A stretch of DNA of 64,000 nt from positions 6,800 through 70,799 of the forward strand of contig DASYVT010000069.1 in the NCBI GenBank assembly GCA_035936835.1, given 5' to 3'. Origin of the DNA: Candidatus Methylomirabilota bacterium (GTDB taxonomy: Bacteria; Methylomirabilota; Methylomirabilia; Rokubacteriales; CSP1-6). The notes under the pieces were generated by a model, which was not told the DNA's origin, made no database searches, and worked only from the letters and a program-made list of their open reading frames with translations. Position numbers and translations under genes: made by a program. The stretch's first letter is position 1. Every line of letters starts with the position of its first letter. Of the stretch, positions 4,532 through 39,155 are shown in pieces.

Positions 4532-5164
4532 ATGGAAAAGAACCTCGAAAGAGACCTCGAGATCCTCACCGCTATCAGCGAGGGCCACCCGCTCACCCAG
4601 CGGGACCTGGCTGAGCGCATGGGGGTCGCCCTCGGCTTGGCCAATCTCTATCTCAAGCGCCTGGCCCGGAAGGGTTTCATCAAGATCACCGACTTCCCGC
4701 GCAAGCCCGCTGCGCGGAAGCGTCTCCGCTACCTCCTGACGCCGCAGGGCATCAGCGAGAAGACCCGGCTGACCTACGAGCACGTCGCCTACTCGCTGAG
4801 CCTCTACCGGCGCGCACGGCAGACGCTGCGCGAGTCGCTGAGCCAGCTGCCTGAGGGCGGCATGAAGCGTATCGCGCTGTACGGAACGGGCGAGGCCGCT
4901 GAGCTCGCCTACCTCACGCTCAAGGAGCTCGGGCTCGAGCCCGTCGGGGTCTTCTCGCGGGATGGCGCCGACGCCTTCCTGGGCTTTCCGGTTCGGCGGC
5001 TGGCAGAAATTACCGGCGAGGAGATCGACGGCGTGGTGGTCGCGACCTTCGAGCCGCCGGAGGGACAGGTCGCCGAGCTCCTGACCATCGGTGTGCCGGC
5101 GGAAAAGGTCCTCACGCTCCGGCGCAGCAGCGTGCTCGCGACCTCCGAAGGGGAGCAGCCGTGA
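4532..5164 (+). CDS. winged-helix transcriptional regulator, EPS-associated MarR-like, with C-terminal Rossmann-like domain
   Basis: ATG 4532; TTG 4514 is possible but lies inside the palindrome. wHTH segment: LTQRDLAERMGVALGLANLYLKRLARKGFIKI...RYLLTPQGISEK. The C-terminal ~95 aa begin IALYGTGEAAELA (GxGxxA). Confidence 0.7.
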   Translation: MEKNLERDLEILTAISEGHPLTQRDLAERMGVALGLANLYLKRLARKGFIKITDFPRKPAARKRLRYLLTPQGISEKTRLTYEHVAYSLSLYRRARQTLRESLSQLPEGGMKRIALYGTGEAAELAYLTLKELGLEPVGVFSRDGADAFLGFPVRRLAEITGEEIDGVVVATFEPPEGQVAELLTIGVPAEKVLTLRRSSVLATSEGEQP

Positions 5165-7008
5165 CGCGCGCCCGGGATCTCAGCCGTTTCGCCTGGCTGC
5201 TCCGCACCTACCTCGCGCCGCACTGGGCGGCCGTCCTTCTGCTCGTGATCACGAGCTTTCTCGCCATGGCGCTGGCCGCCCTCTTCCCCGTGCTGATGGC
5301 GCCGATCCTGGACCTGGCCCTGGGCGCCCCGGCCACGGGCGCCTCCGGCACCTCCGGCGGCTTGAGCCTGAGCAACCTGGGCGCTCTCGTGCTCCAGTGG
5401 CTCGGCACGGGCGCCGGCGACGACCGCTTCCGCGCCATCGTATGGCTCTGCGCCGCATACGTCGGCGTCGGGTTCGCTAAAGGGTGGCTCGACTTCGGCA
5501 ACTTCATCCTGGCCCTGTGGATACGGGTGCGGGCCGGCGCGGCGCTCCAGATGGACCTCTTCCGCCATCTGCTCGGACTCTCGATGCGGTTCTTCACCAC
5601 ACACCGCACGGGCGAGCTGGTCTCGCGCCTCGAGTCCGACACGCGCGCCGCCACGGGCGGGCTCGAGACCATCGTCGGTACCGTCCTGACCGCCCCGCTC
5701 CTCATCGCCTTCTACGGCTGGCTGATGGTCCGCACGAGCCCGAAGCTGGTCCTGGCCGCGCTCGGGGCCGCGGTTCTGCATTTCGGCACCGTGCGCCTGC
5801 TGCGCGGACCCATCCGGCGCCTGGCGATGGACCAGTTCTCGAGCTTCGCTGAGCTTGCGGCGCGGCTTCAGGAAGCCATCCTGAGCATCCGCATCGTCAA
5901 GTCGTTCGGCGCCGAGGCCTTCGAAATCGGGCGCGTCGCCCGCACGGTGCGCGAAGTCCTGCGCGTCAACGTCAAGTTCGGGGTCTACAAGCACGTCGAG
6001 GAGCCCGCGCGCGCGTTCGTCAACTACCTCGTCGAGGCGAGCATCCTGCTCCTCGCGGCCTGGGAGCTCCTGGCCGGGCGGCTCGGCGCGCCGGCCTTCT
6101 TCCTCTTCCTCTACGTCGGGCGCGCGGTGATGATGCAGATTGGTCTCCTGGCCGGGGCCTACACGCAGATCCAGGCGACGCTGGCCGCCTCGAGCCGGGT
6201 GATCCAGCTGCTGGCCCTTGCGCCCGAAGTCCGCGACGGAGCCGGGACGGTCGGGTCCTTCGAAGACCGGATCGCCGTCCGCGACGTCTCCTTCAGCTAC
6301 GGCGGCGAACCCGTTCTCGAGCAGGTGAACCTCGAGATCCGCAAGGGTGAGGTCGTGGCGCTGGTGGGCCCGAGCGGTGTCGGCAAGTCCACGCTCGCCG
6401 ACCTGATCCTGCGCCTCTACGATCCGGTCCAGGGCGTGATTACCATCGACGGGCGGGATCTGCGCACGCTCCGGCAGGACAGCTATCGCAAGCTCTTCGG
6501 CGTGGTGTCCCAGGAGGCCCTGCTCTTCAACGCCACCATCCGCGACAACATCACGTACGGGCGGGAGGGCATCGCGGAAGCCGAGGTCGTCCGCGCTGCG
6601 CGCGTGGCCAACGCCCATGACTTCATTCAGGAATTCCTTGGCGGCTACGAGACCGTCGTGGGTGACCGCGGCATCCGGCTCTCCGGCGGCCAACGCCAGC
6701 GCATCGCGATCGCGCGCGCCGTGGTGGGCCGCCCGCCGATCCTCATCCTCGACGAGGCGACGAGCTCGCTCGACAGCGAGTCCGAGCGGCTGGTGCAGCA
6801 GGCCATCGACCGCGCCGTCCAGGGCGCCACGTCCGTGGTCATCGCCCATCGCCTGTCGACGGTTCTGCACGCCGACAAGATCGTGGTGCTCGGCCGCGGC
6901 GGGGTCGAGGCCATCGGTCGCCACGCGGAGCTCCTTGCGGGCAACGAGACGTACGGCAGGCTCTATCGGCTCCAATTCGCGGAGGTGGGGGCCCTTGGGG
7001 ATCTCTGA
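5161..7008 (+). CDS. fused TMD-NBD ABC exporter, MsbA/PglK-like (candidate lipid-linked glycan flippase)
   Basis: The GTG start overlaps the regulator stop (GTGA). N-terminal exporter-type transmembrane domain. Walker A GPSGVGKST, signature LSGGQRQRIAIARA, Walker B ILILDEATS. Confidence 0.9.
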   Translation: MTRARDLSRFAWLLRTYLAPHWAAVLLLVITSFLAMALAALFPVLMAPILDLALGAPATGASGTSGGLSLSNLGALVLQWLGTGAGDDRFRAIVWLCAAYVGVGFAKGWLDFGNFILALWIRVRAGAALQMDLFRHLLGLSMRFFTTHRTGELVSRLESDTRAATGGLETIVGTVLTAPLLIAFYGWLMVRTSPKLVLAALGAAVLHFGTVRLLRGPIRRLAMDQFSSFAELAARLQEAILSIRIVKSFGAEAFEIGRVARTVREVLRVNVKFGVYKHVEEPARAFVNYLVEASILLLAAWELLAGRLGAPAFFLFLYVGRAVMMQIGLLAGAYTQIQATLAASSRVIQLLALAPEVRDGAGTVGSFEDRIAVRDVSFSYGGEPVLEQVNLEIRKGEVVALVGPSGVGKSTLADLILRLYDPVQGVITIDGRDLRTLRQDSYRKLFGVVSQEALLFNATIRDNITYGREGIAEAEVVRAARVANAHDFIQEFLGGYETVVGDRGIRLSGGQRQRIAIARAVVGRPPILILDEATSSLDSESERLVQQAIDRAVQGATSVVIAHRLSTVLHADKIVVLGRGGVEAIGRHAELLAGNETYGRLYRLQFAEVGALGDL

Positions 7009-7825: not shown

Positions 7826-8818
7826 GTGACGACGCGTGTGGACGGCGGGCTCGAGTGGGCGGAGATGTCCGTGCTGGTGACCGGCGGTACGGGATCCTTC
7901 GGCAACAAGTTCGTCGAGATCATGCTGCAGAAGTACCACCCGAAGCGGCTCGTGATCTTCAGCCGCGACGAGCTCAAGCAGTCGGAGATGATGGCGCGGT
8001 TCAGCGACCCGTCGCTCCGCTTCTTCATCGGCGACGTGCGGGACAAGGAGCGGCTCGAGCGCGCCATGCACGGCATCGACATCGTCGTGCACGCGGCGGC
8101 GCTGAAGCAGATCCCGACGTGCGAGTACAATCCCTTTGAGGCGATCCAGACCAACGTCATCGGGACTAAGAACGTCATCGACGCCGCCATCGACCAGGGC
8201 GTCAAGCGGGTCATCGCCATCAGCAGCGACAAGGCGGTCAACCCGATCAACGTCTACGGCGCGACCAAGCTCTGCGCCGAGAAGCTCGTTGTCCAGGCCA
8301 ACGTGTACGGCCATCCGCGCGGCACCGTGTGCGCGGTGGTGCGCTACGGCAACGTCATCGGCAGCCGGGGCAGCGTCATCCCGCTCTTCAGGGCACAGCG
8401 GGAGACCGGCAAGGTGACGGTGACCGACCGCGGCATGACGCGCTTTTGGATCCGGCTCGAGCAGGGCGTGGAATTCGCTATCCGCTGCGCCGGGATCGCG
8501 CAGGGAGGCGAGATATTCGTGCCCAAGATTCCGAGCATGCGGATGATGGACCTGGTGGAGACCATCGCGCCCGGCTGCCAGGTCGAGTTCATCGGCATCC
8601 GCCCGGGCGAAAAGCTCCACGAGATCCTGATCTCGGAGGACGAGAGCCGCCAGGCCATCGAGTACGACAGCATGTTCGTGCTCGAGCCGCTCTACCCGTC
8701 CTGGCCCTTCGGGAGCCGCGACGGCGGCAAGCGGCCCGCGGCAGGCTTCCGCTACTCGAGCGACACGAACCAGACGTGGTTCACCCGGCCCGAGATGCAG
8801 GAGATGGGCGATGGCTGA
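7826..8818 (+). CDS. pseB: UDP-N-acetylglucosamine 4,6-dehydratase (inverting), PseB/FlaA1/CapD family
   Basis: VLVTGGTGSFG Rossmann motif, catalytic YGATKLCAEK, and VRYGNVIGSRGSVIPLF typical of PseB. GGGGGA lies 7 nt upstream of GTG 7826. Confidence 0.85.
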   Translation: MTTRVDGGLEWAEMSVLVTGGTGSFGNKFVEIMLQKYHPKRLVIFSRDELKQSEMMARFSDPSLRFFIGDVRDKERLERAMHGIDIVVHAAALKQIPTCEYNPFEAIQTNVIGTKNVIDAAIDQGVKRVIAISSDKAVNPINVYGATKLCAEKLVVQANVYGHPRGTVCAVVRYGNVIGSRGSVIPLFRAQRETGKVTVTDRGMTRFWIRLEQGVEFAIRCAGIAQGGEIFVPKIPSMRMMDLVETIAPGCQVEFIGIRPGEKLHEILISEDESRQAIEYDSMFVLEPLYPSWPFGSRDGGKRPAAGFRYSSDTNQTWFTRPEMQEMGDG

Positions 8819-10001
8819 CGCGCTCGCCATCCACGGCGGTACGCCTGTCCGCGCGACGCTGCTGCCCTATGCGCGCCAGACGATCGAGGACGACGATGTC
8901 CAGGCGGTCGTCGCGGCGCTCCGCTCGGACTGGCTCACGACCGGTCCGACCGTCGAGGCCTTCGAGCGGGCCGTGGCCTCGGTGGTGGAAGCACGGCACG
9001 CCGTCGCGGTGAGCTCCGGGACCGCGGCGCTCCACGCCGCCGTCTTCGCCGCGGGGATCGGGCCTGGTGACGAGGTCATCACCTCGCCACTCACCTTTGC
9101 GGCCTCCGCCAACGTCGTGCTCTATCTGGGCGGCACGCCGGTCTTCGCGGACATCCGGCCCGACACGCTCAACGTGGACCCGGCCGAGGTGGCCGTGCGC
9201 GTGACCCCCAAGACCCGGGCCATCCTGCCGGTGGACTTCGCGGGGCAGCCGTGCGATCTCGATGGGCTGAGTGAGATCTCACGCGCCCGCGGGCTGGCCA
9301 TGATCGAAGATGCGGCGCATGCGCTCGGCGCCAGCCACAAGGGGCGCCCCGTCGGGGCCATTGCCGATCTCACGACCTTCAGCTTCCACCCCGCCAAGCT
9401 CATCACGACGGGCGAGGGCGGCATGGTTACGACGAACCGCGACGACCTGGCGGCGCGCCTCCGGCGCTTCCGCAACCACGGACTCGAAACCGACTTCCGC
9501 GAGCGGACCGCGCGCGGGGCGCCCTATTCGCCCATGGTCGATCTCGGCTACAACTATCGGCTGACCGACCTCCAGTGCGCGCTCGGCCTCTCGCAGCTGG
9601 CCAAGCTCGAGTCGCTCCTCAAGCGCCGGGTCCGTGTCGCCGAGCGCTATTCGGCCGCGCTCGGCCGGGTGGACGCCGTGAAGGTCCCCGCTGTCCTGCC
9701 GCACGGCCGGCACGCCTGGCACATCTTCCCCGTCCTGCTGGAGACCGAGCGGATCAGCGCCGACCGTGACACCATCCTGGCCGCACTGCGCGCCGAAGGC
9801 ATCGGGGCGGCCGTGCACTATGTCCCGGCTTACTGGCACCCGTACTACGAGGGGCTCGGCTACCGCCGGGGCCTCTGCCCGCAGGCCGAGGCCGCCTATG
9901 AGCGTCTCCTGACCCTGCCACTCTTCCCCGCCATGACCGACGCCGACGTGGATGATGTCTTGACGGCTCTCCGCAAGGTTCTGGGGTACTACGCGCGATG
10001 A
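8811..10001 (+). CDS. pseC: DegT/DnrJ/EryC1-family PLP aminotransferase, PseC-like
   Basis: ATG 8811 overlaps the pseB end by 8 nt. PLP-lysine context FSFHPAKLITTGEGG. Positioned directly after pseB. Confidence 0.85.
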   Translation: MADALAIHGGTPVRATLLPYARQTIEDDDVQAVVAALRSDWLTTGPTVEAFERAVASVVEARHAVAVSSGTAALHAAVFAAGIGPGDEVITSPLTFAASANVVLYLGGTPVFADIRPDTLNVDPAEVAVRVTPKTRAILPVDFAGQPCDLDGLSEISRARGLAMIEDAAHALGASHKGRPVGAIADLTTFSFHPAKLITTGEGGMVTTNRDDLAARLRRFRNHGLETDFRERTARGAPYSPMVDLGYNYRLTDLQCALGLSQLAKLESLLKRRVRVAERYSAALGRVDAVKVPAVLPHGRHAWHIFPVLLETERISADRDTILAALRAEGIGAAVHYVPAYWHPYYEGLGYRRGLCPQAEAAYERLLTLPLFPAMTDADVDDVLTALRKVLGYYAR

Positions 10002-11017
10002 GCGCCGCACCGCGCGTCGCCTTCCTCACCCACGGCGGGCCGGCCATCGGATTGGGCCACGTGGCCCGATGCCTGTCCCTGGCTCGGGCCCTCGCCGGGG
10101 ACGGCGCCCGTGTCGTCTTTCTGGTCGGCCGGGCAGCCCGGGTGACGAGCGCCGTCGAGGCGGCCGGCTTCGACGCCGTGGAGACGGACTGGGAGAGCGC
10201 CGGGGCAGCGGCGCGCGACCTCGTGTCCGCCCTGCGCCCCGAAGCGCTCGTCGTGGATTCCTATGCGGTCTCGGGCGCGCTGCTCGACTTGCTCCGGCCG
10301 CTGGTGGGCCAGCTGGTCGTCATCGACGACCTCGCCGACCGCCCGCTGCCGGTTCACACGGTCGTCAACGGCGGTATCGACGCCGAGCATCTCGAGTACC
10401 GTGGCGGGCTGCCCGAGACGGTCTATCTGCTGGGGCCGCGCTACGCGCTTCTCGATCCCGCCTACGCAGCGGCGCCGGAGCGGAGGACGCGGGCCTCCGT
10501 GGAGCGCGTGCTTGTTACCCTCGGCGGCGGCTCGCATCCGGGGGCGCTCCGAGCGGTCGTGCAGGCGGCATTGTCCCTCGGCACGGCCGCGGTCGATGTG
10601 CCAGTGGGGCCGTTCGCCGGCGAGGGAGTGGCCGACGCCATCGAGGACGCCCGGGTGATCGTCCATCGGGGCGTCTCGGCGCTCAGGTCCCTGATGCTCG
10701 CCGCGGACGTCGCCATCTCCGGCGCCGGGATGACGCTCTACGAGCTGGCGGCGACCGCAACACCCATCGTCTCCCTGACCATGGCGCCGAACCAGAGGCC
10801 GAACGCTGCAGCCTTCGAGCGTGCCGGCGCCGCGCTGGCGGCCGGCTCAGCCGATCATCCTGATCTCGGCGCGACCGTGGCAAGGCACCTCGGGTGCCTG
10901 GCCGCCGACGCGGCGCTGCGGGAGAAGCTCGGCGCGGCGGGGCGGAGGCTGGTGGACGGGCAGGGGGCGAGCCGCGTCGCCCGGGAGCTCGCCTCCATGC
11001 CGAGCCCGCGGAGATGA
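9998..11017 (+). CDS. pseG: UDP-2,4-diacetamido-2,4,6-trideoxy-beta-L-altropyranose hydrolase, PseG-like (GT28-related)
   Basis: ATGA overlap with pseC. N-terminus VAFLTHGGPAIGLGHVARCLSLARAL is the PseG-type motif. The C-terminal half is MurG-like (ISGAGMTLYELAA). Confidence 0.75.
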   Translation: MSAAPRVAFLTHGGPAIGLGHVARCLSLARALAGDGARVVFLVGRAARVTSAVEAAGFDAVETDWESAGAAARDLVSALRPEALVVDSYAVSGALLDLLRPLVGQLVVIDDLADRPLPVHTVVNGGIDAEHLEYRGGLPETVYLLGPRYALLDPAYAAAPERRTRASVERVLVTLGGGSHPGALRAVVQAALSLGTAAVDVPVGPFAGEGVADAIEDARVIVHRGVSALRSLMLAADVAISGAGMTLYELAATATPIVSLTMAPNQRPNAAAFERAGAALAAGSADHPDLGATVARHLGCLAADAALREKLGAAGRRLVDGQGASRVARELASMPSPRR

Positions 11018-12069
11018 GCATGGGCATCCTCAAGGTCAAGATCGGTGAGCGGTGGGTCGGAGACGGCGAGCCCTGCTTCGTCGTGGCCGAGGCCGGCGCC
11101 AACCACAATCGCGACCTCGCCATGGGCAAGGAGCTGATCGACGTGGCGGCCGAGGCCGGCGCCGACGCCGTCAAGTTCCAGACCTACTCGGCCGAGACGC
11201 TCTACTCGAAGAAGACGCCGAAATTCTCCTACCTCGAGAAGCTGACGTCGAAGGACACCTGGCAGCTTATCAAGGAAATCGAGCTGCCGCGCGAGTGGCA
11301 GGCCGAGCTCCAGGCCTGGGCGTACAAGCGCGGCATCATGTTCTTCTCGGCGCCCTTCGACTACCGCGCGGTGGACGAGCTCGATGCCCTCGGCGTGCCG
11401 GCCTTCAAGATCGCCTCTTTCGAGATCGTGGACCTTCCGTTGATCGGATATGCCGCCGGGAAGGGGCGGCCCATGATCCTCTCTACGGGGCTCGCGACCT
11501 ACGAGGACATCCAGGACGCGGTCGAGACGTGCCGGAGCGCCGGCAACCGGGACATCGTCCTGCTCCAGTGCGCCTCGCTCTACCCCGCGCCGCCGGCCCG
11601 CATCAACTTGCACGCGATGGAGACGATGCGGCGCGCCTTCGGCGTGCCGGTGGGGCTCTCGGACCACACCCTGGGCATCCACGTGGCAGGCGCCGCTGTG
11701 GCGCTCGGCGCCTGCGTGGTCGAGAAGCACTTCACGCTGAGCCGGGCGCTGCCTGGCCCGGATCACCCCTTCGCGATCGAGCCCGCCGAGCTCAAGGCTA
11801 TGGTCCGGCAGATCCGCGACATCGAGGCCGCGCTCGGCGACGGCCGGAAGGCCGGCCCCGCACCCGAGGAGCAGGAGATGCATCAGAAGGCCCGGAGGAG
11901 TCTCATCGCCGCGCGGGCCATCCCCATGGGCACGCGCATCGAGCGGGACATGATCACCATCAAGCGCCCAGGCTTCGGTATCCGGCCCAAGCTGCTCGAC
12001 CTCGTGGTCGGGCGCGTGGCGCAGGTGGACATCGAGGAAGACACCGTGCTGACGTGGGAGATGCTGTGA
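11014..12069 (+). CDS. pseI: pseudaminic acid synthase, NeuB family
   Basis: ATGA overlap with pseG; the track start 10894 is inside pseG. CFVVAEAGANHNRDL..., AVKFQTY, and a C-terminal SAF-like segment ITIKRPGFGI. Confidence 0.85.
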   Translation: MSMGILKVKIGERWVGDGEPCFVVAEAGANHNRDLAMGKELIDVAAEAGADAVKFQTYSAETLYSKKTPKFSYLEKLTSKDTWQLIKEIELPREWQAELQAWAYKRGIMFFSAPFDYRAVDELDALGVPAFKIASFEIVDLPLIGYAAGKGRPMILSTGLATYEDIQDAVETCRSAGNRDIVLLQCASLYPAPPARINLHAMETMRRAFGVPVGLSDHTLGIHVAGAAVALGACVVEKHFTLSRALPGPDHPFAIEPAELKAMVRQIRDIEAALGDGRKAGPAPEEQEMHQKARRSLIAARAIPMGTRIERDMITIKRPGFGIRPKLLDLVVGRVAQVDIEEDTVLTWEML

Positions 12070-12551
12070 GCCGTCTCGACGCCACGCGCGTGGGAGACGT
12101 AGCGCTGAGGCCGGCGCAGCTCGAGGACTGCGCGCGGACCTGGGAATGGCGGAACGACCCGGAGACGAGGCAGGCCTCGTTCGACGCGGCGCCGATCCCG
12201 CTCGAGACGCACGAGGCCTGGTTCCGCGCGAGCCTCGGGCGGGTGGACCGGAGGCTCTACGTGATCCTGGCCCAGGGGCGAGAGTGCGGTTCAGCGCGCC
12301 TGGACTTCGCCGGAGGCGAGGCCGAGGTGAGCATCCATCTCGCGCCCGAGTACCGGGGACGCGGGGTCGGCCCCGCTGCGCTCGAGCGCCTGGTAGAGAC
12401 GGCGTTTGGCGAGCTCGAGCTCGGGCGGCTCGTGGCGCGGGTCAAGGCCGACAACGCGGCCTCGCTGGCCGCCTTCGAGCGGGCGGGTTTCACGCGTGTC
12501 GTCGATGGCGCCGCCGTCACCCTTGTCCGCGCCCGCGAAGAGCGAGCCTGA
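12066..12551 (+). CDS. pseH: GNAT N-acetyltransferase, PseH-like
   Basis: GTGA overlap with pseI. 161 aa with the acetyl-CoA motif EYRGRGVGPAALE. Located inside the pse module. Confidence 0.7.
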   Translation: MSRLDATRVGDVALRPAQLEDCARTWEWRNDPETRQASFDAAPIPLETHEAWFRASLGRVDRRLYVILAQGRECGSARLDFAGGEAEVSIHLAPEYRGRGVGPAALERLVETAFGELELGRLVARVKADNAASLAAFERAGFTRVVDGAAVTLVRAREERA

Positions 12552-13540
12552 TGCGCTTTCTCGTGGTCGGCACGGGCTCGATCGGCACGCGGCACGCCCG
12601 CAACCTCCTGGCATTGGGCCACGAGGTCTCGGGTTGGGACGCGCTCCCCGAGCAGCTCGACCTGGCGCTGCGGACCGTGCCTGGGCTCATCGCGGTAGCG
12701 GGGCTCGAGCAGGGCCTGGCGGCGCGGCCCGAGGCCGTGCTGGTGTGCACCCCGCCGGCGACCCACATGACCGTGGCAAGGCAGGCGGTCGAAGCCGGCT
12801 GCCACGTCTTCGTGGAGAAGCCCGTGGCACACCTCTCGGACGAGGTGCCGGCCCTCCTCGACACGGCCAAGCGTGCCGACAGGCTCTTCGCGGTGGGCTT
12901 CAACTTGCGCTTCCTGCCGAGTCTCCGCCGCGTGAAGGCGCTGCTCGATGCCGGGCGTATCGGACGCGTCCACTCGGCAAGCGCCCGCTTCGGCTTCTTC
13001 CTGCCGGCCTGGCGCGCCGGGCGTGACTACAAAGATAACTACGCGGTGAGCGCCGAGCAGGGGGGTGGCGTGCTGCTCGACGCGATCCACGAGCTCGACT
13101 ATCTGGGCTGGTTCTTCGGGGAGGCGGCGGAGCTCTGTTGTGCCGCCGGCCACGTGAGCGCCCTCGCGGGCGACACGGAAGACCTCGCCGAAGTGACTGT
13201 GCGCTTCTCCTCGGGCGTGCTCGCCCAGGTCCACCTCGACTATCTGCGCCGCGCCTATCGGCGAGACCTGGAGGTCATCGGCGCCGACGGCGTCATCACT
13301 TGGGACTACGCATCGCGAGCCGTGACCGTGCTTGGTCCGGAGCCCGATCGCGTCGAGGCGCACGACGCATCGGGCGACGCGCCGAACGAATCCATGTACG
13401 TCGCGGAAATGCGACACTTCATCGCCTGCCTCGAAGGGCGCGAGGAGCCGCTCGCGGACGGCTGGGAGGCGCTCCGGTCCCTGCGCATGGTCGAAGCTGC
13501 GAAGCGTTCGGACGCCGAGCGGCGCTGGGTGAGCCTCTGA
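12551..13540 (+). CDS. Gfo/Idh/MocA-family NAD(P)-dependent oxidoreductase
   Basis: TGATG junction with pseH. N-terminal MRFLVVGTGSIGTRHARNL Rossmann motif, then VFVEKPVA, characteristic of the family. Confidence 0.8.
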   Translation: MRFLVVGTGSIGTRHARNLLALGHEVSGWDALPEQLDLALRTVPGLIAVAGLEQGLAARPEAVLVCTPPATHMTVARQAVEAGCHVFVEKPVAHLSDEVPALLDTAKRADRLFAVGFNLRFLPSLRRVKALLDAGRIGRVHSASARFGFFLPAWRAGRDYKDNYAVSAEQGGGVLLDAIHELDYLGWFFGEAAELCCAAGHVSALAGDTEDLAEVTVRFSSGVLAQVHLDYLRRAYRRDLEVIGADGVITWDYASRAVTVLGPEPDRVEAHDASGDAPNESMYVAEMRHFIACLEGREEPLADGWEALRSLRMVEAAKRSDAERRWVSL

Positions 13541-14340
13541 TGGCAGAGCGGGCCGTTGTGGTGATCCAGGCGCGGCTCGGCTCAACGCGCCTGCCCGGCA
13601 AGGCGCTGGCCGACGTCGCAGGGCGTCCCATGCTGGCCCACGTGGCCGAGCGGGCGGCGGCGATTCCCGGCATCGCTGGGATGGTGATCGCGACGACGGT
13701 GAGCCCGGCAGACGAGGCGCTGGAGCACTTCGCGCGGCAGGCCGGCCTTCACTGTATCCGCGGCAGCGAGGCGGATGTCCTCGACCGGTTCTGCCTGGCG
13801 GCCCGCGAGACGAAGGCCGAGGCGGTCGTCCGAGTCACGGCGGACTGCCCGCTGCTCGATCCCGAGGTTTCCGGGCGTGTGCTGGTCGAATACCTGGGTC
13901 GCCGCCCGGGCGTGGACTACGTGAGCAACGTGCACCCGCCGACCTATCCCGACGGCCTCGACACCGAGGTCGTCTCGGTCGAGGCGTTGGAGACGGCGGC
14001 GCGCGAGACGCAGTTGCCCTCCGACCGCGAGCACGTGACGGCCTACCTCTGGCGCCGGCCGGAGCGCTTCCGCTTGGCCAATGTCACTCACGGTGAAGAT
14101 CTCTCGGCGCACCGCTGGACCGTGGACACCGGGGCCGACCTCACGTTCGTTCGGGCGGTGTTCCAGACGCTCGGGCCCGCCGCAGCCCGCGCGGGCATGG
14201 CCGAGGTGCTGCGGCTTCTCGCCGAGCGTCCGGCGCTCCGCGCCCTCGATGCGGGCCTTCGCCGCAATGAGGGGTTCGAGCAGTCACTCGCGGCCGACCA
14301 TCAGACCGTCACCACAACGCCGAGGACCACCGCGCCATGA
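13540..14340 (+). CDS. SpsF/COG1861-type cytidylyltransferase (candidate CMP-nonulosonate synthetase)
   Basis: TGATG junction. VVVIQARLGSTRLPGKAL...VVRVTADCPLLDP...YPDGLDTEV matches the acylneuraminate-cytidylyltransferase-like SpsF pattern. Confidence 0.75.
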   Translation: MAERAVVVIQARLGSTRLPGKALADVAGRPMLAHVAERAAAIPGIAGMVIATTVSPADEALEHFARQAGLHCIRGSEADVLDRFCLAARETKAEAVVRVTADCPLLDPEVSGRVLVEYLGRRPGVDYVSNVHPPTYPDGLDTEVVSVEALETAARETQLPSDREHVTAYLWRRPERFRLANVTHGEDLSAHRWTVDTGADLTFVRAVFQTLGPAAARAGMAEVLRLLAERPALRALDAGLRRNEGFEQSLAADHQTVTTTPRTTAP

Positions 14341-15632
14341 CCGCGTCGCGCCGCAGCTTCGACCGCTCGATGGCCATGCTGGCCCGCGCGCGCCGCTCCA
14401 TCCCGGGCGCCTCGCAGACGCTCTCGAAGGGCGCCAATATGTTCGTCGAGGGCGCCTACCCGGTATTCCTCCAGCGGGGGGAGGGCTGCCGCGTCTGGGA
14501 CGTGGACGGCGGCGAGTACATCGACTACATCCTGGGTCTGGCCTCGATCACCCTGGGCTATGCCTATCCGGCCGTGACGGAAGCCGTCGCCCGCCAGCTC
14601 GGCGAAGGGAGCATCTTCTCGCTGCCCCATCCGCTCGAGGTCGAGGTGGCCGAGCGGCTCATCGAGGTGATCCCCTGCGCCGAGCAGGTGCGCTTCCTCA
14701 AGACAGGCTCCGAGGCGAATTCGGCGGCAATACGTGTGGCGCGAGCGACCACCGGGCGCGACGTCATCGTGTACTGCGGTTACTCAGGCTGGCACGACTG
14801 GTACGCGATTACCACCCCGCGATCCAAGGGAATTCCGAAGGACTTCGCGCGCTTCATCGTGCCGTTCAACTACAATGACCTGCCTTCGCTCGATCGGGCG
14901 CTGGATGAGCACTACGGCAAGGTCGCTGCGGTGATCATGGAAGCCGTGCTGCTCGATGCTCCAGGGCCGGGCTTCCTCGAGGGCGCCAGGAAGGCCGCGC
15001 ACGACCACGGCGCGCTTCTGATCTTCGACGAGATCGTGAGCGGCTTCCGCTGGGCTGTCGGCGGAGCGCAGGAATACTTCGGCGTTGCCCCGGACCTGGC
15101 GACTTTTGGAAAGGGCATGGCCAATGGCCTCCCGCTCTCGGCGGTTGTGGGGCGCGCCGAGCTCATGCGTGAGTTCGAGGACGTGTTCGTGTCGAGCACC
15201 TTCGGCGGCGACACGCTGGCGCTCGCAGCGGCGGCTGCGACGATAGACGAGTACCGGCAGAAGCCAGTCATCGCGCACCTGTGGGCCGCCGGGCGACGCT
15301 TCCAGGACGGCTTCAAGCGGGCCGCCACGAGGACGGGGCTGCCCGTCGACTGCGTCGGCTTCCCGGTCCATCCCAAGATCGTCTTCCGCCACGCGCGTGA
15401 GGAGACCAACCGGCTGCTCATGAGCCTATTCCTCCAGGAGACGGGGCGGCGAGGCGTCATCTTCCACTTCGCGGGCTTCAACATCTCCTTTTCGCATTCC
15501 GACGCCGACGTGGCCCAGAGTCTCGAGGCCTGTGAGGCTGCGCTCCGGATCGTGGGCGAGGCGCTGGCCGATGGTCGCGTGGTCGAGAGGCTCGAGGGGC
15601 GGCCCTACGAGGAGGTCTTCAAGCGCTCGTGA
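14337..15632 (+). CDS. class-III PLP aminotransferase, glutamate-1-semialdehyde 2,1-aminomutase-like
   Basis: ATGA junction. GSEANSAAIRVARA..., LIFDEIVSGFR, and PLP-lysine context DLATFGKGMANGLP. Confidence 0.85.
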   Translation: MTASRRSFDRSMAMLARARRSIPGASQTLSKGANMFVEGAYPVFLQRGEGCRVWDVDGGEYIDYILGLASITLGYAYPAVTEAVARQLGEGSIFSLPHPLEVEVAERLIEVIPCAEQVRFLKTGSEANSAAIRVARATTGRDVIVYCGYSGWHDWYAITTPRSKGIPKDFARFIVPFNYNDLPSLDRALDEHYGKVAAVIMEAVLLDAPGPGFLEGARKAAHDHGALLIFDEIVSGFRWAVGGAQEYFGVAPDLATFGKGMANGLPLSAVVGRAELMREFEDVFVSSTFGGDTLALAAAAATIDEYRQKPVIAHLWAAGRRFQDGFKRAATRTGLPVDCVGFPVHPKIVFRHAREETNRLLMSLFLQETGRRGVIFHFAGFNISFSHSDADVAQSLEACEAALRIVGEALADGRVVERLEGRPYEEVFKRS

Positions 15633-16852
15633 TGCGGATCGCCTTCATCATCCGCAGGAAGAACTACTACCGCCTGCTCGGACCGGCGGTCGAGGAGGGG
15701 CTCCGGCGCGGCTGGCGCGTCGAGTGCTGGCACGACTGGAGCCAGCCTCGGGGCGGCGCCAAGGGCTCGGAGTTCCCGGACACGGCGCCCGCCATGGCTG
15801 GGGGCGCGCCCGAGGTGCGCACGTTCCTCGGGTTCGAAGACCTCGCTGCGCAATTTCGCGCAGACTCGCCGGACGTCGCCGTCACGCTCGATCCGCCGGA
15901 TCCCGCCACCCGGACCGGCAGCACGGCACGGTGGCTATGGCTCCAGTACTCGGCCGATATCCTGTTCGAGCCGACGCCCCAGGGTTTTTTAGACGCCGAT
16001 GCGGTGGGCGCCTACAGCGCGTACTGGACAGAGCGGCTCGAGGAACGGTACTGGGAAACTGGGGCTGCCCAAGAGATTCGCCGCAAGATGCGGCCGGTCG
16101 GCATGCCCGAACTGGATGCGGCGCGCCGCATTGACCCGGACGAGGTCCGCCGGCGGCTCGGGCTGCCCCGCGATCGTCCCATCGTGCTGTACCTGTCCTT
16201 TCCGCTCCGGTCGAACCCGCCGACGTTCTGGCTGCGCGGAGTGTTCACGCCGTCCACCCGGCTCGGCCAGGCCGCGCGCACCCTGGTGGCGCGGCGCATG
16301 GAGTACTGGCCGGACGTGCGGGAGGGCTTGAACGACCGGCGTCTAGTCGAGGCCGTGCGCCGCTTCTGCGACAGGGCCGGAGCGGCGCTCGTGATGAAGT
16401 CGCGGCTCAAGGATCCGATTCCGCGCTACGCCTTGAGGCGCGCGGATCGCGCGTTCTATGACCTCTCCCATTACCCCGCGACCATCCTCGATCTCCTCAG
16501 CGTTGCCTCGCTCTGCATCCACGCGTACAGCACGACGGTGCTCGAGGCCGGCTACTGTGGCGTGCCGAGCCTCTGCCTTGCGCCGACTGACGCCGCCATG
16601 GGCCAGCCTGCCTTTGCCTCGGAGTTTGTCCACAACCTCAAGCCCGGCTGGATTTACAACTGGCCGGGCGTCGCCTATGGTGTGCCGCTGAGGGAGGCCT
16701 ACGGCGGCTTCGGCCGCTGGAGCCTCGCCGACTTCCCCTTGGACCGGAGGGCCCGCAGCGACTACATCGATCGCTTCCTCGGCTTCGACGACGGCAGGAG
16801 CTCGGGACGCCTGCTCGATCTGGTCGAAGGATTGGCCCCGGAGGGCCGATGA
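15632..16852 (+). CDS. hypothetical protein with a GT-B-like C-terminal half (candidate nonulosonate transferase)
   Basis: ATG 15632 (TGATG); GTG 15629 is also possible. No family recognised by eye. The C-terminal ILDLLSVASLCIHAYSTTVLEAGYCGVPSLCLAP resembles the nucleotide-sugar-binding half of GT-B enzymes. Confidence 0.5.
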   Translation: MRIAFIIRRKNYYRLLGPAVEEGLRRGWRVECWHDWSQPRGGAKGSEFPDTAPAMAGGAPEVRTFLGFEDLAAQFRADSPDVAVTLDPPDPATRTGSTARWLWLQYSADILFEPTPQGFLDADAVGAYSAYWTERLEERYWETGAAQEIRRKMRPVGMPELDAARRIDPDEVRRRLGLPRDRPIVLYLSFPLRSNPPTFWLRGVFTPSTRLGQAARTLVARRMEYWPDVREGLNDRRLVEAVRRFCDRAGAALVMKSRLKDPIPRYALRRADRAFYDLSHYPATILDLLSVASLCIHAYSTTVLEAGYCGVPSLCLAPTDAAMGQPAFASEFVHNLKPGWIYNWPGVAYGVPLREAYGGFGRWSLADFPLDRRARSDYIDRFLGFDDGRSSGRLLDLVEGLAPEGR

Positions 16853-17661
16853 GCGCCTCGACCGCTCACGCCGCCGGCGCCCGTCTGAGGACCCTCCTCG
16901 CGGCGTACTACACGCGCTACTACCGGGACACGCTCGGCCTGCCTGACTGGCAGACGAAGGTCTTGGGCCGGCTCACCGAGGAAGACGTGGAGACGACCCG
17001 CATCCAGATCGTGGCCGAGGCCTTGGGCCGGCCGCTCCACGGCCTGCGCGTGCTGAACGTGGGATGCGGCACTGGCGGCTTCAACGTGGCGGCCCAGCGG
17101 GCGGGCGCCAGCACGTGGGGGATCGATGCGAGCGACGATGCCATCCGCATCTGCGAGCTCCGGCGAGCGCTCGGCGCGGGCGGCCGGTACGCCCTTGCGG
17201 CCGCCGAGGCGCTGCCGTTCCCGGACGACTCCTTCGATCTCGTCTACTGCCTCTCGACTCTCGAGCACGTGGAGGGCGTTGAGGCCGCGGTCGGCGAGAT
17301 GGTTCGTGTGCTCCGCCCCGGAGGCGCCGTGCTGCTCTACGCTCCGAACGCCTGGGCGCTCTACGAGAACCACTACAAGATCTTCTGGCCCCCGCGCTGC
17401 CCCAAGCCGCTGGCGCGCTTGTACCTGCGCCTGCGGCGTCGGCCCCCGGGCTTCGTGGACACGCTGAACTATCTCTCGGCCCGCCGCTGTGCAAGGCTCT
17501 TCCGGCGCGCGGGCGCCACGGTCGCGCCCTTCGGGCTGGTCAAGACGGACGGGCCCGTCGCGGGGTGGAGCGCGCGGCTGGCGCGCCTCTACTACCGCAT
17601 GTTCAGGGTCCAGCCCGCCATCCAGCTCGTCGCTCGGAAGGGTGCGGCGGCACGGCCATGA
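16849..17661 (+). CDS. class I SAM-dependent methyltransferase
   Basis: ATGA junction. Motif I VLNVGCGTGGF, then DLVYCLSTLEHV and VLRPGGAVLL. Confidence 0.85.
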   Translation: MSASTAHAAGARLRTLLAAYYTRYYRDTLGLPDWQTKVLGRLTEEDVETTRIQIVAEALGRPLHGLRVLNVGCGTGGFNVAAQRAGASTWGIDASDDAIRICELRRALGAGGRYALAAAEALPFPDDSFDLVYCLSTLEHVEGVEAAVGEMVRVLRPGGAVLLYAPNAWALYENHYKIFWPPRCPKPLARLYLRLRRRPPGFVDTLNYLSARRCARLFRRAGATVAPFGLVKTDGPVAGWSARLARLYYRMFRVQPAIQLVARKGAAARP

Positions 17662-35570: not shown

Positions 35571-35616
35571 CAATCTAACTGCGTGAAAGAGTGAATCTTC
35601 TCCAGGAGCGTCGCAG

Positions 35617-36582
35617 ATGCGAGTGCTGATCACCGGCATCACCGGGTTCGTCGGGAGCCACATGGCCGAGTACGCCCTGGCCAAGGGCGCCCAGGTCTTC
35701 GGCTCGAACCGGTGGCGCAGCAAGACGGAGAACATCGAGCACCTGCGCTCGAAGGTGACCTTCATCGAGTCCGACCTCAGGGACCTGTCCTCGGTCCGGG
35801 CCCTGCTCGAGACCTCGGTCCCCGACTACGTCGTGCACCTGGCGGCCCAGAGCTTCGTGGGCGTGTCCTGGCACGCGCCGGCGGAGACGCTGACGACCAA
35901 CATCCTGTCCCAGCTCAACCTGCTGGAGGCCCTCCGCGGCCTCAAGATGTCGCCGCGCCTCCTGGCGGTGGGCTCGAGCGAGGAGTACGGGCTGGTCCTC
36001 GAGGGCGAGGTGCCCATCACGGAGACCAATCCGCTCCGGCCGCTGTCGCCGTACGCCGTCAGCAAGGTCACGCAGGACATGATGGCCTACCAGTACTTCA
36101 AGAGCTACGGTCTGCCGATCATTCGCACGCGGGCCTTCAACCACGAAGGGCCCCGGCGCGGCGACGTCTTCGTCACGTCGAACTTCGCCCGGCAGGTGGC
36201 CGAGATCGAGGCCGGGCTGCGCGAGCCCGTGGTCTATGTCGGCGATCTCACCCCGCGCCGCGACTACTCCGACGTGCGCGACATCGTGCGCGGCTACTGG
36301 CTCCTGCTCGAGCGCGGGGAGCCCGGCGAAGTCTACAACCTCTGTTCGGGGCGGTCGTGGTCCATCCAGCAGGTGCTCGACTTCGTGCTGAATCTCTCCA
36401 CGGTCAAGGGGATCACGGTCAAGACCGACCCGGCGCGGCTGCGCCCCTCCGACGTCATGATCCTCGAGGGGGACCCGACCAAGATGCACACGGCCACCGG
36501 CTGGAAGGTGGAGATTCCCTTCGAGCGCACGCTCACGGAGCTCCTGGACTACTGGCGGCAGCGGACCCGCGCGTCCCGCTGA
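35617..36582 (+). CDS. gmd: GDP-mannose 4,6-dehydratase family enzyme
   Basis: VLITGITGFVGSH, catalytic YAVSKV, FNHEGPRRGDVFVT (Gmd signature-like). A Rmd-type reductase cannot be excluded by eye. Confidence 0.75.
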   Translation: MRVLITGITGFVGSHMAEYALAKGAQVFGSNRWRSKTENIEHLRSKVTFIESDLRDLSSVRALLETSVPDYVVHLAAQSFVGVSWHAPAETLTTNILSQLNLLEALRGLKMSPRLLAVGSSEEYGLVLEGEVPITETNPLRPLSPYAVSKVTQDMMAYQYFKSYGLPIIRTRAFNHEGPRRGDVFVTSNFARQVAEIEAGLREPVVYVGDLTPRRDYSDVRDIVRGYWLLLERGEPGEVYNLCSGRSWSIQQVLDFVLNLSTVKGITVKTDPARLRPSDVMILEGDPTKMHTATGWKVEIPFERTLTELLDYWRQRTRASR

Positions 36583-39154: not shown

Positions 39155-39155
39155 G

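What the first reader, a model, noticed from the sequence alone, without database searches (positions are those of the whole stretch)
7826..16852. Complete pseB-C-G-I-H module followed by a non-canonical activation/tailoring trio instead of a NeuA-type PseF
Seen: pseB, pseC, pseG, pseI and pseH are contiguous and overlapped. The next overlapped genes are a Gfo/Idh/MocA oxidoreductase (12551), an SpsF/COG1861-type cytidylyltransferase (13540), a glutamate-1-semialdehyde-aminomutase-like class-III aminotransferase (14337) and an unassigned 406-aa protein with a GT-B-like C-terminal half (15632).

Established: canonical CMP-Pse formation uses a NeuA/KdsB-like PseF.

Inference:
- The SpsF-type enzyme is the CMP-activating step here.
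- The oxidoreductase and aminotransferase form an oxidise-then-transaminate pair. They could produce an additionally aminated nonulosonate or a second amino sugar.
- The unknown protein is a candidate pseudaminyltransferase.
Basis: partly seen in the sequence, partly recalled or inferred. Interest (0 to 1): 0.6.

Follow-up and report, generated by a model that had tools for sequence, protein, structure and literature searches.

The report
Pseudaminic-acid operon with amination add-on
An uncultured soil bacterium carries a complete operon for the sialic-acid-like surface sugar pseudaminic acid in which the usual activating enzyme is replaced by a widespread, biochemically untested three-gene set that probably adds a third amino group to the sugar. 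A distant teichoic-acid-type transferase follows and probably attaches the sugar to a glycan.

Summary
HMMs confirm ten overlapping genes at 7826-17661:
- pseB, pseC, pseG, pseI and a GNAT;
- a Gfo/Idh/MocA oxidoreductase;
- an SpsF-type CTP_transf_3 cytidylyltransferase (CT);
- a class-III aminotransferase (AT);
- an unassigned 407-aa protein;
- a methyltransferase.

The genome is 99.9% complete. It has no NeuA-type PseF, and its only other CTP_transf_3 gene is kdsB. It also has only one full NeuB. The CT is therefore the only candidate CMP-activating enzyme.

The trio is not rare. In 67 well-flanked loci from many phyla:
- the CT has a Gfo (33) or an aldo/keto reductase (27) next to it, never both;
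- 50 have the AT adjacent;
- 58 hold at least two pse genes.

Among all 80 loci, CT and AT are fused in 18.

Published analogues are ElaABC and EpaAB, where a cytidylyltransferase plus a C8 oxidoreductase remodel CMP-Leg or Pse. These point to oxidation and then transamination, probably at C8. An 8-amino Pse-like sugar is known from Flexibacter maritimus, with its genes unknown.

The 407-aa protein has a GT-B fold and is a distant TagB/TagF relative, like the Tannerella Pse/Leg transferases.

No biochemistry exists for the module. This scan already found it on other DNA in about 294 genomes, with the same reading.

The parts
7826..8818 (+). pseB, UDP-GlcNAc 4,6-dehydratase (inverting)
   Evidence: TIGR03589 463.3 bits, cut-off 407.75. 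PF02719 332 bits.
8811..10001 (+). pseC, DegT-family 4-aminotransferase
   Evidence: TIGR03588 442.8 bits, cut-off 423.5. PF01041 419 bits.
9998..11017 (+). pseG-like UDP-sugar hydrolase
   Evidence: TIGR03590 150.5 bits, cut-off 153.55, over 267 residues. No Pfam hit. Syntenic homologues lie in pse loci.
11014..12069 (+). pseI, NeuB-family nonulosonate synthase with SAF domain
   Evidence: TIGR03586 340.4 bits, cut-off 340.25. TIGR03569 376.5 bits, cut-off 399.65. PF03102 312 bits. It is the only full NeuB in the genome. ATG 11014 overlaps the pseG stop.
12066..12551 (+). GNAT N-acetyltransferase, PseH-like by position
   Evidence: PF13302 74.7 bits. PseH model only 45.8 bits, cut-off 93.1. 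Homologues sit beside pseG or pseI in other loci.
12551..13540 (+). Gfo/Idh/MocA NAD(P) oxidoreductase. Proposed to oxidise a hydroxyl, probably C8-OH, of the (CMP-)nonulosonate.
   Evidence: PF01408, PF02894 and PF22725. The top PDB hit is 3EZY at 84.8 bits, which is also the nearest PDB relative reported for ElaA. A Gfo homologue lies directly next to the CT in 33 of 67 loci.
13540..14340 (+). SpsF/FlmC-type CTP_transf_3 cytidylyltransferase. Proposed CMP-nonulosonate synthetase.
   Evidence: PF02348 95.3 bits. PseF model 20.1 bits, cut-off 205.7. Best PDB hit is the 6OEW cytidylyltransferase at 105 bits. Relatives are named SpsF by JGI. It is the only non-KdsB CTP_transf_3 gene in the genome.
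14337..15632 (+). Class-III PLP aminotransferase, GSA-aminomutase-like. Proposed to transaminate the keto intermediate.
   Evidence: PF00202 177 bits. hemL model 251 bits, cut-off 527, and a true hemL lies elsewhere in the genome. The PLP lysine (K259) and the D231-E232 pair are invariant in 24 homologues. It is fused to the CT in 18 of 80 loci.
15629..16852 (+). Divergent TagB/TagF-like GT-B protein. Candidate CMP-nonulosonate glycosyltransferase.
   Evidence: AlphaFold2 pLDDT 92.4. VIA matches: NeuC Z 22.8, TagF Z 22.5, TagF-like capsule polymerases Z 20-21.8. PF04464 17.5 bits for this protein, and weak hits in 26 of 28 relatives. NF046086 (BFO_1060 family) 22 bits, with hits in 11 of 28 relatives. 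Homologues lie inside the pse loci of relatives.
16849..17661 (+). Class-I SAM methyltransferase overlapping the previous gene. Possibly tailors the sugar.
   Evidence: PF08241 79 bits. Homologues at 46-51% identity lie right after the AT in L010-L012.

Best explanation
The stretch is the sugar-building half of a large surface-glycan locus on undecaprenyl phosphate, in a Methylomirabilota (Rokubacteria) genome.

Proposed pathway:
1. PseB, PseC, the GNAT, PseG and PseI make a pseudaminic-acid-type nonulosonate from UDP-GlcNAc.
2. The SpsF/FlmC-type cytidylyltransferase, not a NeuA-type PseF, activates it with CMP.
3. The Gfo/Idh/MocA oxidoreductase oxidises one hydroxyl of the sugar. This is most likely C8-OH, giving a methyl ketone, and most likely on the CMP-linked form.
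4. The class-III aminotransferase converts that ketone to an amine. The product would be a 5,7,8-triamino-type (8-amino-8-deoxy) pseudaminic acid.
5. The divergent TagB/TagF-like GT-B protein transfers the CMP-activated sugar to the growing lipid-linked glycan.

Shown here: gene identities, the absence of any other activating enzyme, and the conservation and fusion of the module.

Inferred: the chemistry of the oxidoreductase and aminotransferase, the position attacked, the order of steps, and the donor of the GT-B protein.
For: Gene identities.

The CT as the activating enzyme:
- There is no NeuA-type PseF in the 99.94% complete genome. The only other CTP_transf_3 gene is kdsB, and there is a single full NeuB.
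- Five named genomes carrying the same CT have no cut-off-passing PseF.
- In a 121-genome phylum sample, 12 of 14 genomes with a cut-off-passing PseB have this CT. One (G013) has a true PseF next to pseB instead.
- Locus L085 is a compact pseB-pseC-CT-pseG-GNAT-pseI set with the CT in the pseF position and no add-on.
- Published precedents: FlmC completes a reconstituted Pse pathway in E. coli (PMC7591256), and SpsF is needed after Leg synthesis (PMC7439481).

The module:
- In 67 loci with flanks, Gfo is adjacent in 33 and AKR in 27, never both, and one or the other in 60.
- The AT is adjacent in 50 and within the locus in 59. A DegT aminotransferase sits there instead in 5 more.
- At least two pse genes are present in 58.
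- CT and AT share one ORF in 18 of 80 loci from at least 10 phyla. CT-AKR fusions occur in L047 and L053.
- The AT keeps its PLP lysine. It is not the housekeeping hemL.

Analogues:
- ElaB (CT), ElaA (Gfo/Idh/MocA, proposed C8-OH oxidation of CMP-Leg) and ElaC (SDR) (PMC13656337).
- EpaA (a CTP_transf_3-AKR fusion) plus EpaB (SDR) convert Pse to 8-epi-Pse, shown by NMR (PMC12053666).
- An 8-amino-3,5,7,8,9-pentadeoxy-manno-nonulosonic acid exists in the Flexibacter maritimus O-antigen (PMC3210612).

The GT-B protein. BFO_1060 is an orthologue of the genetically validated Tannerella Pse/Leg transferases, which carry a TagB domain (PMC5420450).

Lipid-linked assembly context: an ABC exporter, a Bac_transf initiating transferase and a Wzy_C ligase-like gene.
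Against: - No enzyme of the CT/oxidoreductase/AT module has been assayed in any paper I could find. The chemistry is therefore inferred from family membership, synteny and fusions only.
- AKR partners usually act as reductases, so the reverse order (deaminate, then reduce) is not excluded for the AKR-type modules.
- The operon has only one GNAT. A third amine would stay free, or would need the methyltransferase or another enzyme.
- I could not compare the CT directly with FlmC, SpsF or EpaA, nor the Gfo with ElaA, because their sequences could not be fetched here.
- PseG (150.5, cut-off 153.6) and the GNAT (45.8, cut-off 93) fall below their equivalog cut-offs.
- For the GT-B protein, NeuC-type hydrolysing epimerases tie with TagF in fold score, and all sequence-family hits are below cut-off.
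Confidence: 0.5

Rival explanations
1. The cytidylyltransferase is the PseF equivalent. The oxidoreductase and aminotransferase make a separate nucleotide-linked amino sugar, as the WbpB/WbpE-type 3-oxidation and transamination of a UDP-HexNAc does. That sugar goes elsewhere in the glycan, not onto the nonulosonate.
For: - Gfo/Idh/MocA enzymes of the WbpB/WlbA/GnnA type oxidise UDP-sugars at C3. The window protein scores 102 bits on the archaeal UDP-GlcNAc 3-dehydrogenase model NF040723 and matches WlbA-like PDB entries.
- In some loci a DegT enzyme replaces the class-III AT.
Against: - CT and AT are one polypeptide in 18 of 80 loci, and CT-AKR fusions also exist. Such fusions are hard to explain if the enzymes serve different sugars.
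- The pair sits directly next to the CT in most loci and follows pse genes, not other sugar genes.
- All characterised WbpB-type partners are DegT-family enzymes, not class III (established knowledge).
Confidence: 0.12
2. The module changes stereochemistry or moves an amino group and causes no net amination. One version is C8 or C4 epimerisation through a keto intermediate. Another is a GSA-aminomutase-like 1,2-shift between neighbouring carbons. Either would give an isomer of pseudaminic acid.
For: - The closest characterised systems (ElaABC, EpaAB) are C8 epimerases that use the same CT-plus-oxidoreductase logic.
- The AT's nearest named family is GSA aminomutase.
- Class-III relatives in the PDB include bifunctional 6'-epimerase/aminotransferases.
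- The window has only one GNAT, so there is no obvious acyltransferase for a third amine.
Against: - Known NulO epimerisation needs a second reductase (SDR), not a PLP enzyme.
- In five loci a DegT sugar aminotransferase takes the AT's place. This points to plain keto-sugar transamination.
- The 5- and 7-amines of Pse are acylated, so they cannot form the aldimine that a mutase needs (established chemistry).
Confidence: 0.15
3. The 407-aa GT-B protein is not the nonulosonate transferase. It would instead be a CDP-glycerol/ribitol-phosphate transferase decorating the glycan, or a NeuC/PseG-like UDP-sugar hydrolase in the biosynthetic path. One of the downstream GT4 or GT2 enzymes would then transfer the sugar.
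For: - NeuC (Z 22.8) and UDP-GlcNAc 2-epimerases (Z 21.7-21.9) tie with TagF (Z 22.5).
- The repeated Pfam hit is to the glycerophosphotransferase family.
- In L010-L012 the homologue lies between pseG and pseI, a typical place for a pathway enzyme.
Against: - The only repeated NCBIfam hit is the Tannerella Pse/Leg transferase family.
- I saw no CDP-glycerol or CDP-ribitol synthesis gene among the window genes I scanned.
- The operon already has a PseG.
- The gene travels with pse genes in relatives.
Confidence: 0.3
4. The SpsF-type enzyme does not activate the nonulosonate. KdsB or an unrecognised enzyme does that, and the CT handles another substrate.
For: - The CT scores only 20 bits on the PseF model.
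- Direct homology to FlmC or SpsF could not be tested here.
Against: - There is no other candidate in the genome.
- The CT occupies the pseF slot in compact loci (L085).
- In relatives it is close to mutually exclusive with a true PseF: 12 of 14 have the CT and one has PseF.
- Published function of FlmC, SpsF and EpaA.
Confidence: 0.05

Closest known systems
Canonical CMP-pseudaminic acid pathway: PseB, PseC, PseH, PseG, PseI, PseF of Campylobacter jejuni and Helicobacter pylori
   Same: PseB, PseC and PseI pass their equivalog cut-offs. PseG is 3 bits below its cut-off. A GNAT sits where PseH would be. The gene set and logic are the same up to the free nonulosonate.
   Different: There is no NeuA-type PseF; an SpsF-type CTP_transf_3 enzyme stands in its place. 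Two extra enzymes, a Gfo/Idh/MocA oxidoreductase and a class-III aminotransferase, are translationally coupled to it.
FlmC of Caulobacter crescentus and SpsF of Bacillus subtilis (COG1861-type cytidylyltransferases)
   Same: Both are non-NeuA cytidylyltransferases that serve as the CMP-activating step of a Pse (FlmC) or Leg (SpsF) pathway (PMC7591256, PMC7439481). JGI names the window protein's close relatives SpsF.
   Different: The papers do not describe those enzymes with a coupled oxidoreductase and aminotransferase. I could not align them with the window protein here.
ElaABC of Acinetobacter baumannii KL49 (8-epi-legionaminic acid)
   Same: A cytidylyltransferase works with a Gfo/Idh/MocA enzyme proposed to oxidise C8-OH of the CMP-linked nonulosonate. 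A second enzyme then acts on the 8-keto group (PMC13656337). ElaA and the window Gfo share the same nearest PDB structure, 3EZY.
   Different: ElaB is NeuA/PseF-like: it was solved using 6IFD. The second enzyme is an SDR reductase, which gives an epimer. Here it is a PLP aminotransferase, which would give an amine. The substrate there is Leg, not Pse.
EpaA/EpaB of Acinetobacter baumannii prophages (Pse to 8-epi-Pse)
   Same: EpaA fuses a CTP_transf_3 domain to an aldo/keto reductase. With EpaB it remodels C8 of pseudaminic acid, as shown by NMR (PMC12053666). The same CT-AKR pairing or fusion is the alternative form of this module in 27 of 67 loci.
   Different: The window uses Gfo instead of AKR, and an aminotransferase instead of the SDR EpaB. 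EpaA could not be fetched for comparison (one search found no such phage record).
Tanf_01245 / TFUB4_00887 / BFO_1060, the Pse- and Leg-derivative transferases of Tannerella forsythia
   Same: They are GT-B proteins with a TagB-type domain that use CMP-nonulosonates (PMC5420450). This is the only NCBIfam family hit repeatedly by the 407-aa protein's family, in 11 of 28 members.
   Different: The hits are far below cut-off (22 bits, cut-off 200) and cover about 40 residues of the nucleotide-binding region. The HP motif reads H-F here. The proteins differ in length: 407 aa here, about 445 aa in Tannerella.

Membership tests
PseF, NeuA-type pseudaminic acid cytidylyltransferase (TIGR03584) | Whole-protein score at or above the curated cut-off of 205.7 bits | tested here: not met
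   The window CT scores 20.1 bits over 65 residues. The best hit anywhere in the genome is 35.9 bits, and that is kdsB.
CTP_transf_3 (PF02348) cytidylyltransferase superfamily | Pfam gathering score of 22.6 bits, and the N-terminal nucleotide-binding motif | tested here: met
   95.3 bits. The G-S-x-R-L-P-G-K motif is invariant in relatives.
SpsF/FlmC-type (COG1861) cytidylyltransferases | Closer to SpsF and FlmC than to KdsB, NeuA or PseF | tested here: inconclusive
   Close relatives are named SpsF by JGI. The best PDB hit is the 6OEW cytidylyltransferase at 105 bits; KdsB scores 57 and no NeuA or PseF structure is hit. In the tree, the window CT and the loci CTs group together and kdsB lies apart on a long branch. 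SpsF and FlmC themselves could not be fetched.
PseB (TIGR03589), PseC (TIGR03588), PseI (TIGR03586) | Equivalog cut-offs of 407.75, 423.5 and 340.25 bits | tested here: met
   463.3, 442.8 and 340.4 bits. PseI passes by only 0.15 bits. It also scores 376.5 on the NeuB model, below that model's cut-off of 399.65.
PseG (TIGR03590) | Equivalog cut-off of 153.55 bits | tested here: inconclusive
   150.5 bits over positions 2-279 of 280. Its position among pse genes is conserved.
PseH (TIGR03585) | Equivalog cut-off of 93.1 bits | tested here: not met
   45.8 bits. The GNAT fold is clear: PF13302 scores 74.7 bits. The role is inferred from position only.
Glutamate-1-semialdehyde 2,1-aminomutase (HemL, TIGR00713; PRK06209 NF004856) | Equivalog cut-offs of 527.3 and 486 bits | tested here: not met
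   251 and 397 bits. A true hemL at 616 bits lies on another contig.
Class-III PLP aminotransferases (PF00202) | Pfam gathering score, and the Schiff-base lysine | tested here: met
   177 bits. The lysine aligns with the catalytic lysine motif of GSA aminomutase 5I92. K259 is invariant in 24 homologues.
ElaABC / EpaAB-type nonulosonate C8-remodelling systems | A cytidylyltransferase, a C8 oxidoreductase and an SDR that reduces the 8-keto group | tested here: not met
   The CT and a Gfo/Idh/MocA oxidoreductase are present. No SDR is present; a PLP aminotransferase takes that place. It may work like these systems in its first steps, but it is not a member.
Glyphos_transf (PF04464, TagB/TagF) | Pfam gathering score of 22.1 bits, and the GT-B-like TagF fold | tested here: inconclusive
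   17.5 bits (E 0.0022) for the window protein. 26 of 28 relatives hit weakly, best E 7.5e-5. The fold match to TagF has Z 22.5, rmsd 3.7 Å over 334 residues, and ties with NeuC at Z 22.8.
BFO_1060 family glycosyltransferase (NF046086, Tannerella Pse/Leg transferases) | Curated cut-off of 200 bits | tested here: not met
   22.1 bits over residues 284-324. 11 of 28 relatives hit, best E 2.9e-6.

The most novel reading that the evidence does not exclude
The oxidoreductase / SpsF-type cytidylyltransferase / class-III aminotransferase module is the unidentified genetic basis of 8-amino-8-deoxy (5,7,8-triamino) pseudaminic-acid-type sugars. One such sugar is known chemically, from the Flexibacter (Tenacibaculum) maritimus O-antigen. 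If the module makes this class, such sugars are widespread across bacteria, CPR and archaea. In this phylum they would be installed by a previously unrecognised branch of TagB/TagF-like transferases.
Probability: 0.4. Interest if true: 0.7.

Novelty: new variant of a known kind. Interest (0 to 1): 0.45.

Why it matters
Nonulosonic acids shape how microbial surfaces are seen by phages, immune systems and lectins.

If the add-on does what the comparative evidence suggests, three things follow:
- A large share of the 'pseudaminic acid' clusters annotated in environmental bacteria, CPR and archaea make a triamino sugar instead of Pse5Ac7Ac. The same clusters occur in Legionella, Leptospira and Pseudomonas.
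- A 20-year-old orphan structure, the 8-amino sugar of Tenacibaculum maritimum, would gain its genes.
- The module would supply enzymes for making amine-functionalised sialic-acid analogues.

For this window alone the finding is one more instance of a module that this scan has met many times. Its own contributions are:
- an unfused, Gfo-type version of the module in a genome with demonstrably no other activating enzyme;
- a new candidate family of nonulosonate transferases.

Tried and rejected
I used the search for related loci and tblastn instead.
- tblastn of the CT against phage records found no EpaA-like gene. It found only a kdsB and one unannotated marine virus hit. A direct comparison with EpaA was therefore impossible.
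- Neither the 407-aa protein alone nor its family profile finds anything significant among PDB sequences.
- I tried to test whether loci with the AT carry an extra N-acyltransferase. BLAST with five GNAT queries detected zero or one GNAT in most loci, and only five AT-less loci were available. The test is uninformative.
- Literature searches found no paper assigning a function to the AT or to the trio. The searches combined glutamate-1-semialdehyde, aminomutase, class-III aminotransferase, SpsF or MocA with pseudaminic or nonulosonic acid. 'Triamino' plus 'nonulosonic' returned nothing.
The O-antigen cluster paper does not describe the relevant genes.
- The CT tree is the quick version only; the careful search did not finish.
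- The tallies each include one unpublished genome (G062, G034). Neither is among the 14 PseB-passing genomes that I cross-tabulated.

Full report
**What is there**

The window is 64 kb of about 70% G+C DNA from a 4.1-Mb, 99.94% complete genome. The closest homologues of the cytidylyltransferase locus come from Rokubacteria/Methylomirabilota.

From 7826 to 17661 the + strand carries ten genes whose ends overlap by 1, 4 or 8 nt. The family assignments are:
- PseB: 463 bits, cut-off 408.
- PseC: 443 bits, cut-off 423.
- PseG-like: 150.5 bits, cut-off 153.6.
- PseI/NeuB: 340.4 bits, cut-off 340.25.
- A GNAT that scores only 45.8 bits on the PseH model (cut-off 93).
- A Gfo/Idh/MocA oxidoreductase.
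- A CTP_transf_3 cytidylyltransferase (CT): 95 bits on PF02348, but 20 bits on the PseF model.
- A class-III aminotransferase (AT) whose best named model is a GSA-aminomutase-like family, below its cut-off.
- A 407-aa protein with no Pfam family at E<=0.001.
- A class-I methyltransferase.

**Context**

The block is part of a roughly 35-kb glycan locus. Its parts are:
- An MsbA/PglK-type ABC exporter (5161-7008) and a methyltransferase upstream.
- Alternating GT4 and methyltransferase genes downstream.
- Further on, a GDP-mannose dehydratase, a Bac_transf initiating transferase (37406-39154) and a Wzy_C ligase-like gene (39117-40382).

The product is thus a lipid-linked, exported surface glycan, not a flagellin modification.

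**Is there a canonical PseF?**

No. A whole-genome search with PF02348 finds only two real CTP_transf_3 genes: the window's CT and a gene on another contig. That second gene is kdsB: 295 bits on a KdsB model and 37 bits on PseF. The PseF model finds nothing above 36 bits. The genome also has only one full NeuB. The CT is therefore the only candidate for CMP activation.

The same holds elsewhere:
- Five named genomes with this CT in a pse locus have no cut-off-passing PseF. They are a Pseudomonas MAG, Leptospira yanagawae, Pseudomaricurvus, Cohnella and Lusitaniella.
- In 121 genomes of the phylum, 14 have a cut-off-passing PseB. Twelve of these have the SpsF-type CT, usually within 12 kb of pseB. 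One (G013) instead has a cut-off-passing PseF 1.2 kb from pseB.
- Locus L085 is a compact pseB-pseC-CT-pseG-GNAT-pseI set with the CT in the pseF slot.

The literature already has this substitution:
- B. subtilis SpsF is needed after legionaminic acid is made (PMC7439481).
- A Vibrio Pse cluster has an SpsF-like CT fused to an aldo/keto reductase 'replacing the NeuA homolog' (PMC7371886).

I could not align FlmC or SpsF with the window protein. Membership of their subfamily therefore rests on three things: JGI's naming of close relatives, the best PDB hit 6OEW, and the family's separation from kdsB.

**The trio is a conserved module**

A pattern scan of species-representative genomes returned 587 relatives, and 80 loci were kept. 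I laid the window's proteins on them with tblastn and tabulated the result.

Of the 67 loci with at least 1.5 kb on both sides of the CT:
- 33 have a Gfo/Idh/MocA gene next to it, and 27 have an aldo/keto reductase. None has both, and 60 have one or the other.
- 50 have the class-III AT adjacent, and 59 have it within the locus. In five more, a DegT aminotransferase sits there instead.
- 58 hold at least two pse genes, and 48 hold at least three.

Further points:
- In 18 of the 80 loci, CT and AT share one open frame of about 685 aa (Pfam confirmation for L075). These loci span Rokubacteria, Acidobacteriota, Planctomycetota, Elusimicrobiota, Chloroflexota, Spirochaetota, Pseudomonadota, Actinomycetota and a Micrarchaeon.
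- CT-AKR fusions also occur, in L047 and L053.
- On a quick CT tree, the Gfo-linked and AKR-linked forms are clustered but interleaved: 11 changes each, against about 24 in shuffles. The oxidoreductase partner has therefore been swapped repeatedly.
- Leptospira yanagawae even has two modules in one locus: AKR + GNAT + a CT-AT fusion, and CT2 + Gfo + DegT.
- The same gene order appears in the Legionella pneumophila serogroup 6/12 O-antigen cluster, listed without comment in PMC3694923.

**What the module probably does**

The recurrent combination is one cytidylyltransferase, one NAD(P) oxidoreductase from either of two unrelated families, and one aminotransferase from either of two families. 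The enzymes are often fused. This argues for three consecutive steps on one metabolite.

Two published systems use the first two parts to remodel C8 of a nonulosonate:
- ElaB (CT), ElaA (Gfo/Idh/MocA, proposed to oxidise C8-OH of CMP-Leg5,7Ac2) and ElaC (an SDR that reduces the ketone to the epimer) (PMC13656337).
- EpaA (a CTP_transf_3-AKR fusion) with EpaB (SDR), which converts Pse5Ac7Ac to its 8-epimer, as shown by NMR (PMC12053666).

ElaA's nearest PDB structure, 3EZY, is also the top PDB hit of the window's Gfo.

Replacing the second reductase with a PLP aminotransferase would turn epimerisation into amination. An 8-keto-9-deoxy group is a methyl ketone, which is a typical substrate for class-III transaminases (established knowledge).

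The AT is catalytically intact: the PLP lysine K259 and the D231-E232 pair are invariant. It is not the housekeeping hemL, which lies elsewhere in the genome.

The predicted sugar class exists. The Flexibacter (Tenacibaculum) maritimus O-polysaccharide holds a 5,7-diacylamido-8-amino-3,5,7,8,9-pentadeoxy-manno-nonulosonic acid (PMC3210612). A 2022 study of that species' O-antigen locus states that nothing is known about the genes involved (PMC9796276). I could not fetch that genome, so the link is a proposal, not a result.

Still open:
- Whether the position is C8 or C4.
- Whether the steps act on the free or the CMP-linked sugar.
- Whether the AKR-type modules run in the same direction.
- What becomes of the new amine here. 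The operon has a single GNAT. The methyltransferase at 16849-17661 is syntenic with the module in relatives.

**The 407-aa protein**

Its family is small: 173 hits, all 'hypothetical' and without Pfam domains. In Rokubacterial relatives, homologues lie inside the pse loci, between pseG and pseI in L010-L012.

- An alignment-based AlphaFold2 model is confident: pLDDT 92.4, pTM 0.91. It shows a two-Rossmann-domain GT-B fold.
- An exhaustive structural search puts several families in a tie at the top: NeuC (Z 22.8), TagF (Z 22.5), UDP-GlcNAc 2-epimerases (Z 21.7-21.9) and TagF-like capsule polymerases, one of them solved with CMP (Z 20-21.8). Ordinary GT1 and GT4 enzymes follow at Z 15-20.
- Sequence evidence is sub-threshold but consistent. 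26 of 28 family members hit PF04464 Glyphos_transf; the window protein scores 17.5 bits against a cut-off of 22.1. 11 of 28 hit NF046086.
- NF046086's name-giving protein, BFO_1060, is the orthologue of the genetically validated Pse- and Leg-derivative transferases of Tannerella forsythia. Those proteins are described as TagB-domain GT-B enzymes (PMC5420450).
- Language-model neighbours with a Pfam label are Glyphos_transf and polysialyltransferase clusters.

TagB/TagF enzymes and sialyltransferases all release CMP. A CMP-nonulosonate transferase is thus the most economical reading, at about 0.5. A glycerol-phosphate transferase or a NeuC-like hydrolase is not excluded.

**Verdict**

The module is neither rare nor first seen here. 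This scan's earlier reports describe it in about 294 genomes with the same reading. This window is a clean, unfused, Gfo-type example in a genome that demonstrably lacks any other activating enzyme.

- counts showing that Gfo and AKR partners exclude each other;
- the PseF-or-SpsF cross-tabulation in the phylum;
- the chemical precedent from T. maritimum;
- the placement of the unknown protein as a distant TagB/TagF-like relative of the Tannerella nonulosonate transferases.

Noticed in passing
window 5161-7008 and 35587-40382: The pse block belongs to a roughly 35-kb lipid-linked glycan locus. A PglK/MsbA-type ABC exporter lies just upstream; it is 67-72% identical and syntenic in L008, L012 and L024. 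Downstream lie a GDP-mannose 4,6-dehydratase, a Bac_transf initiating transferase and a Wzy_C ligase-like gene.
   Followed up: partly
window 16849-17661; L010:12851, L011:12098, L012:12081: The methyltransferase overlapping the 407-aa gene has homologues at 46-51% identity directly after the aminotransferase in three Rokubacterial loci. It may belong to the sugar-tailoring module, for example by methylating the new amine.
   Followed up: no
L063:8492-18999 (Leptospira yanagawae): One locus holds two cytidylyltransferase modules. The first is AKR + GNAT + a CT-AT fusion between pseC and pseG. The second is CTP_transf_3 + Gfo/Idh/MocA + DegT after pseI. A PIG-L deacetylase and a formyltransferase-like gene lie in between.
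   Followed up: partly
L024:10747-13116: In the closest named relative (Rokuibacteriota AR27), the first ~332 residues of the aminotransferase and the homologue of the 407-aa protein lie in one 790-aa open frame. This could be a fusion, a deletion or an assembly artefact.
   Followed up: no
own genome G000: C19:14990-16258, C215:31633-32886, C226:8042-9289, C178:59190-60440: Besides a true hemL (C15, 616 bits), the genome has four more GSA-aminomutase-like genes. They score 340-400 bits on the hemL model, which is an unusually large set of paralogues.
   Followed up: no
own genome G000:C203:12728-14322: Two adjacent weak NeuB-domain matches (42 and 46 bits, profile positions 53-238 only) lie outside the window. 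They are not full nonulosonate synthases.
   Followed up: no
phylum sample: 36 of 121 Methylomirabilota genomes carry NeuA-like genes scoring 60-176 bits on the PseF model, below its cut-off. These probably belong to other nonulosonate pathways. The window's genome has none.
   Followed up: partly
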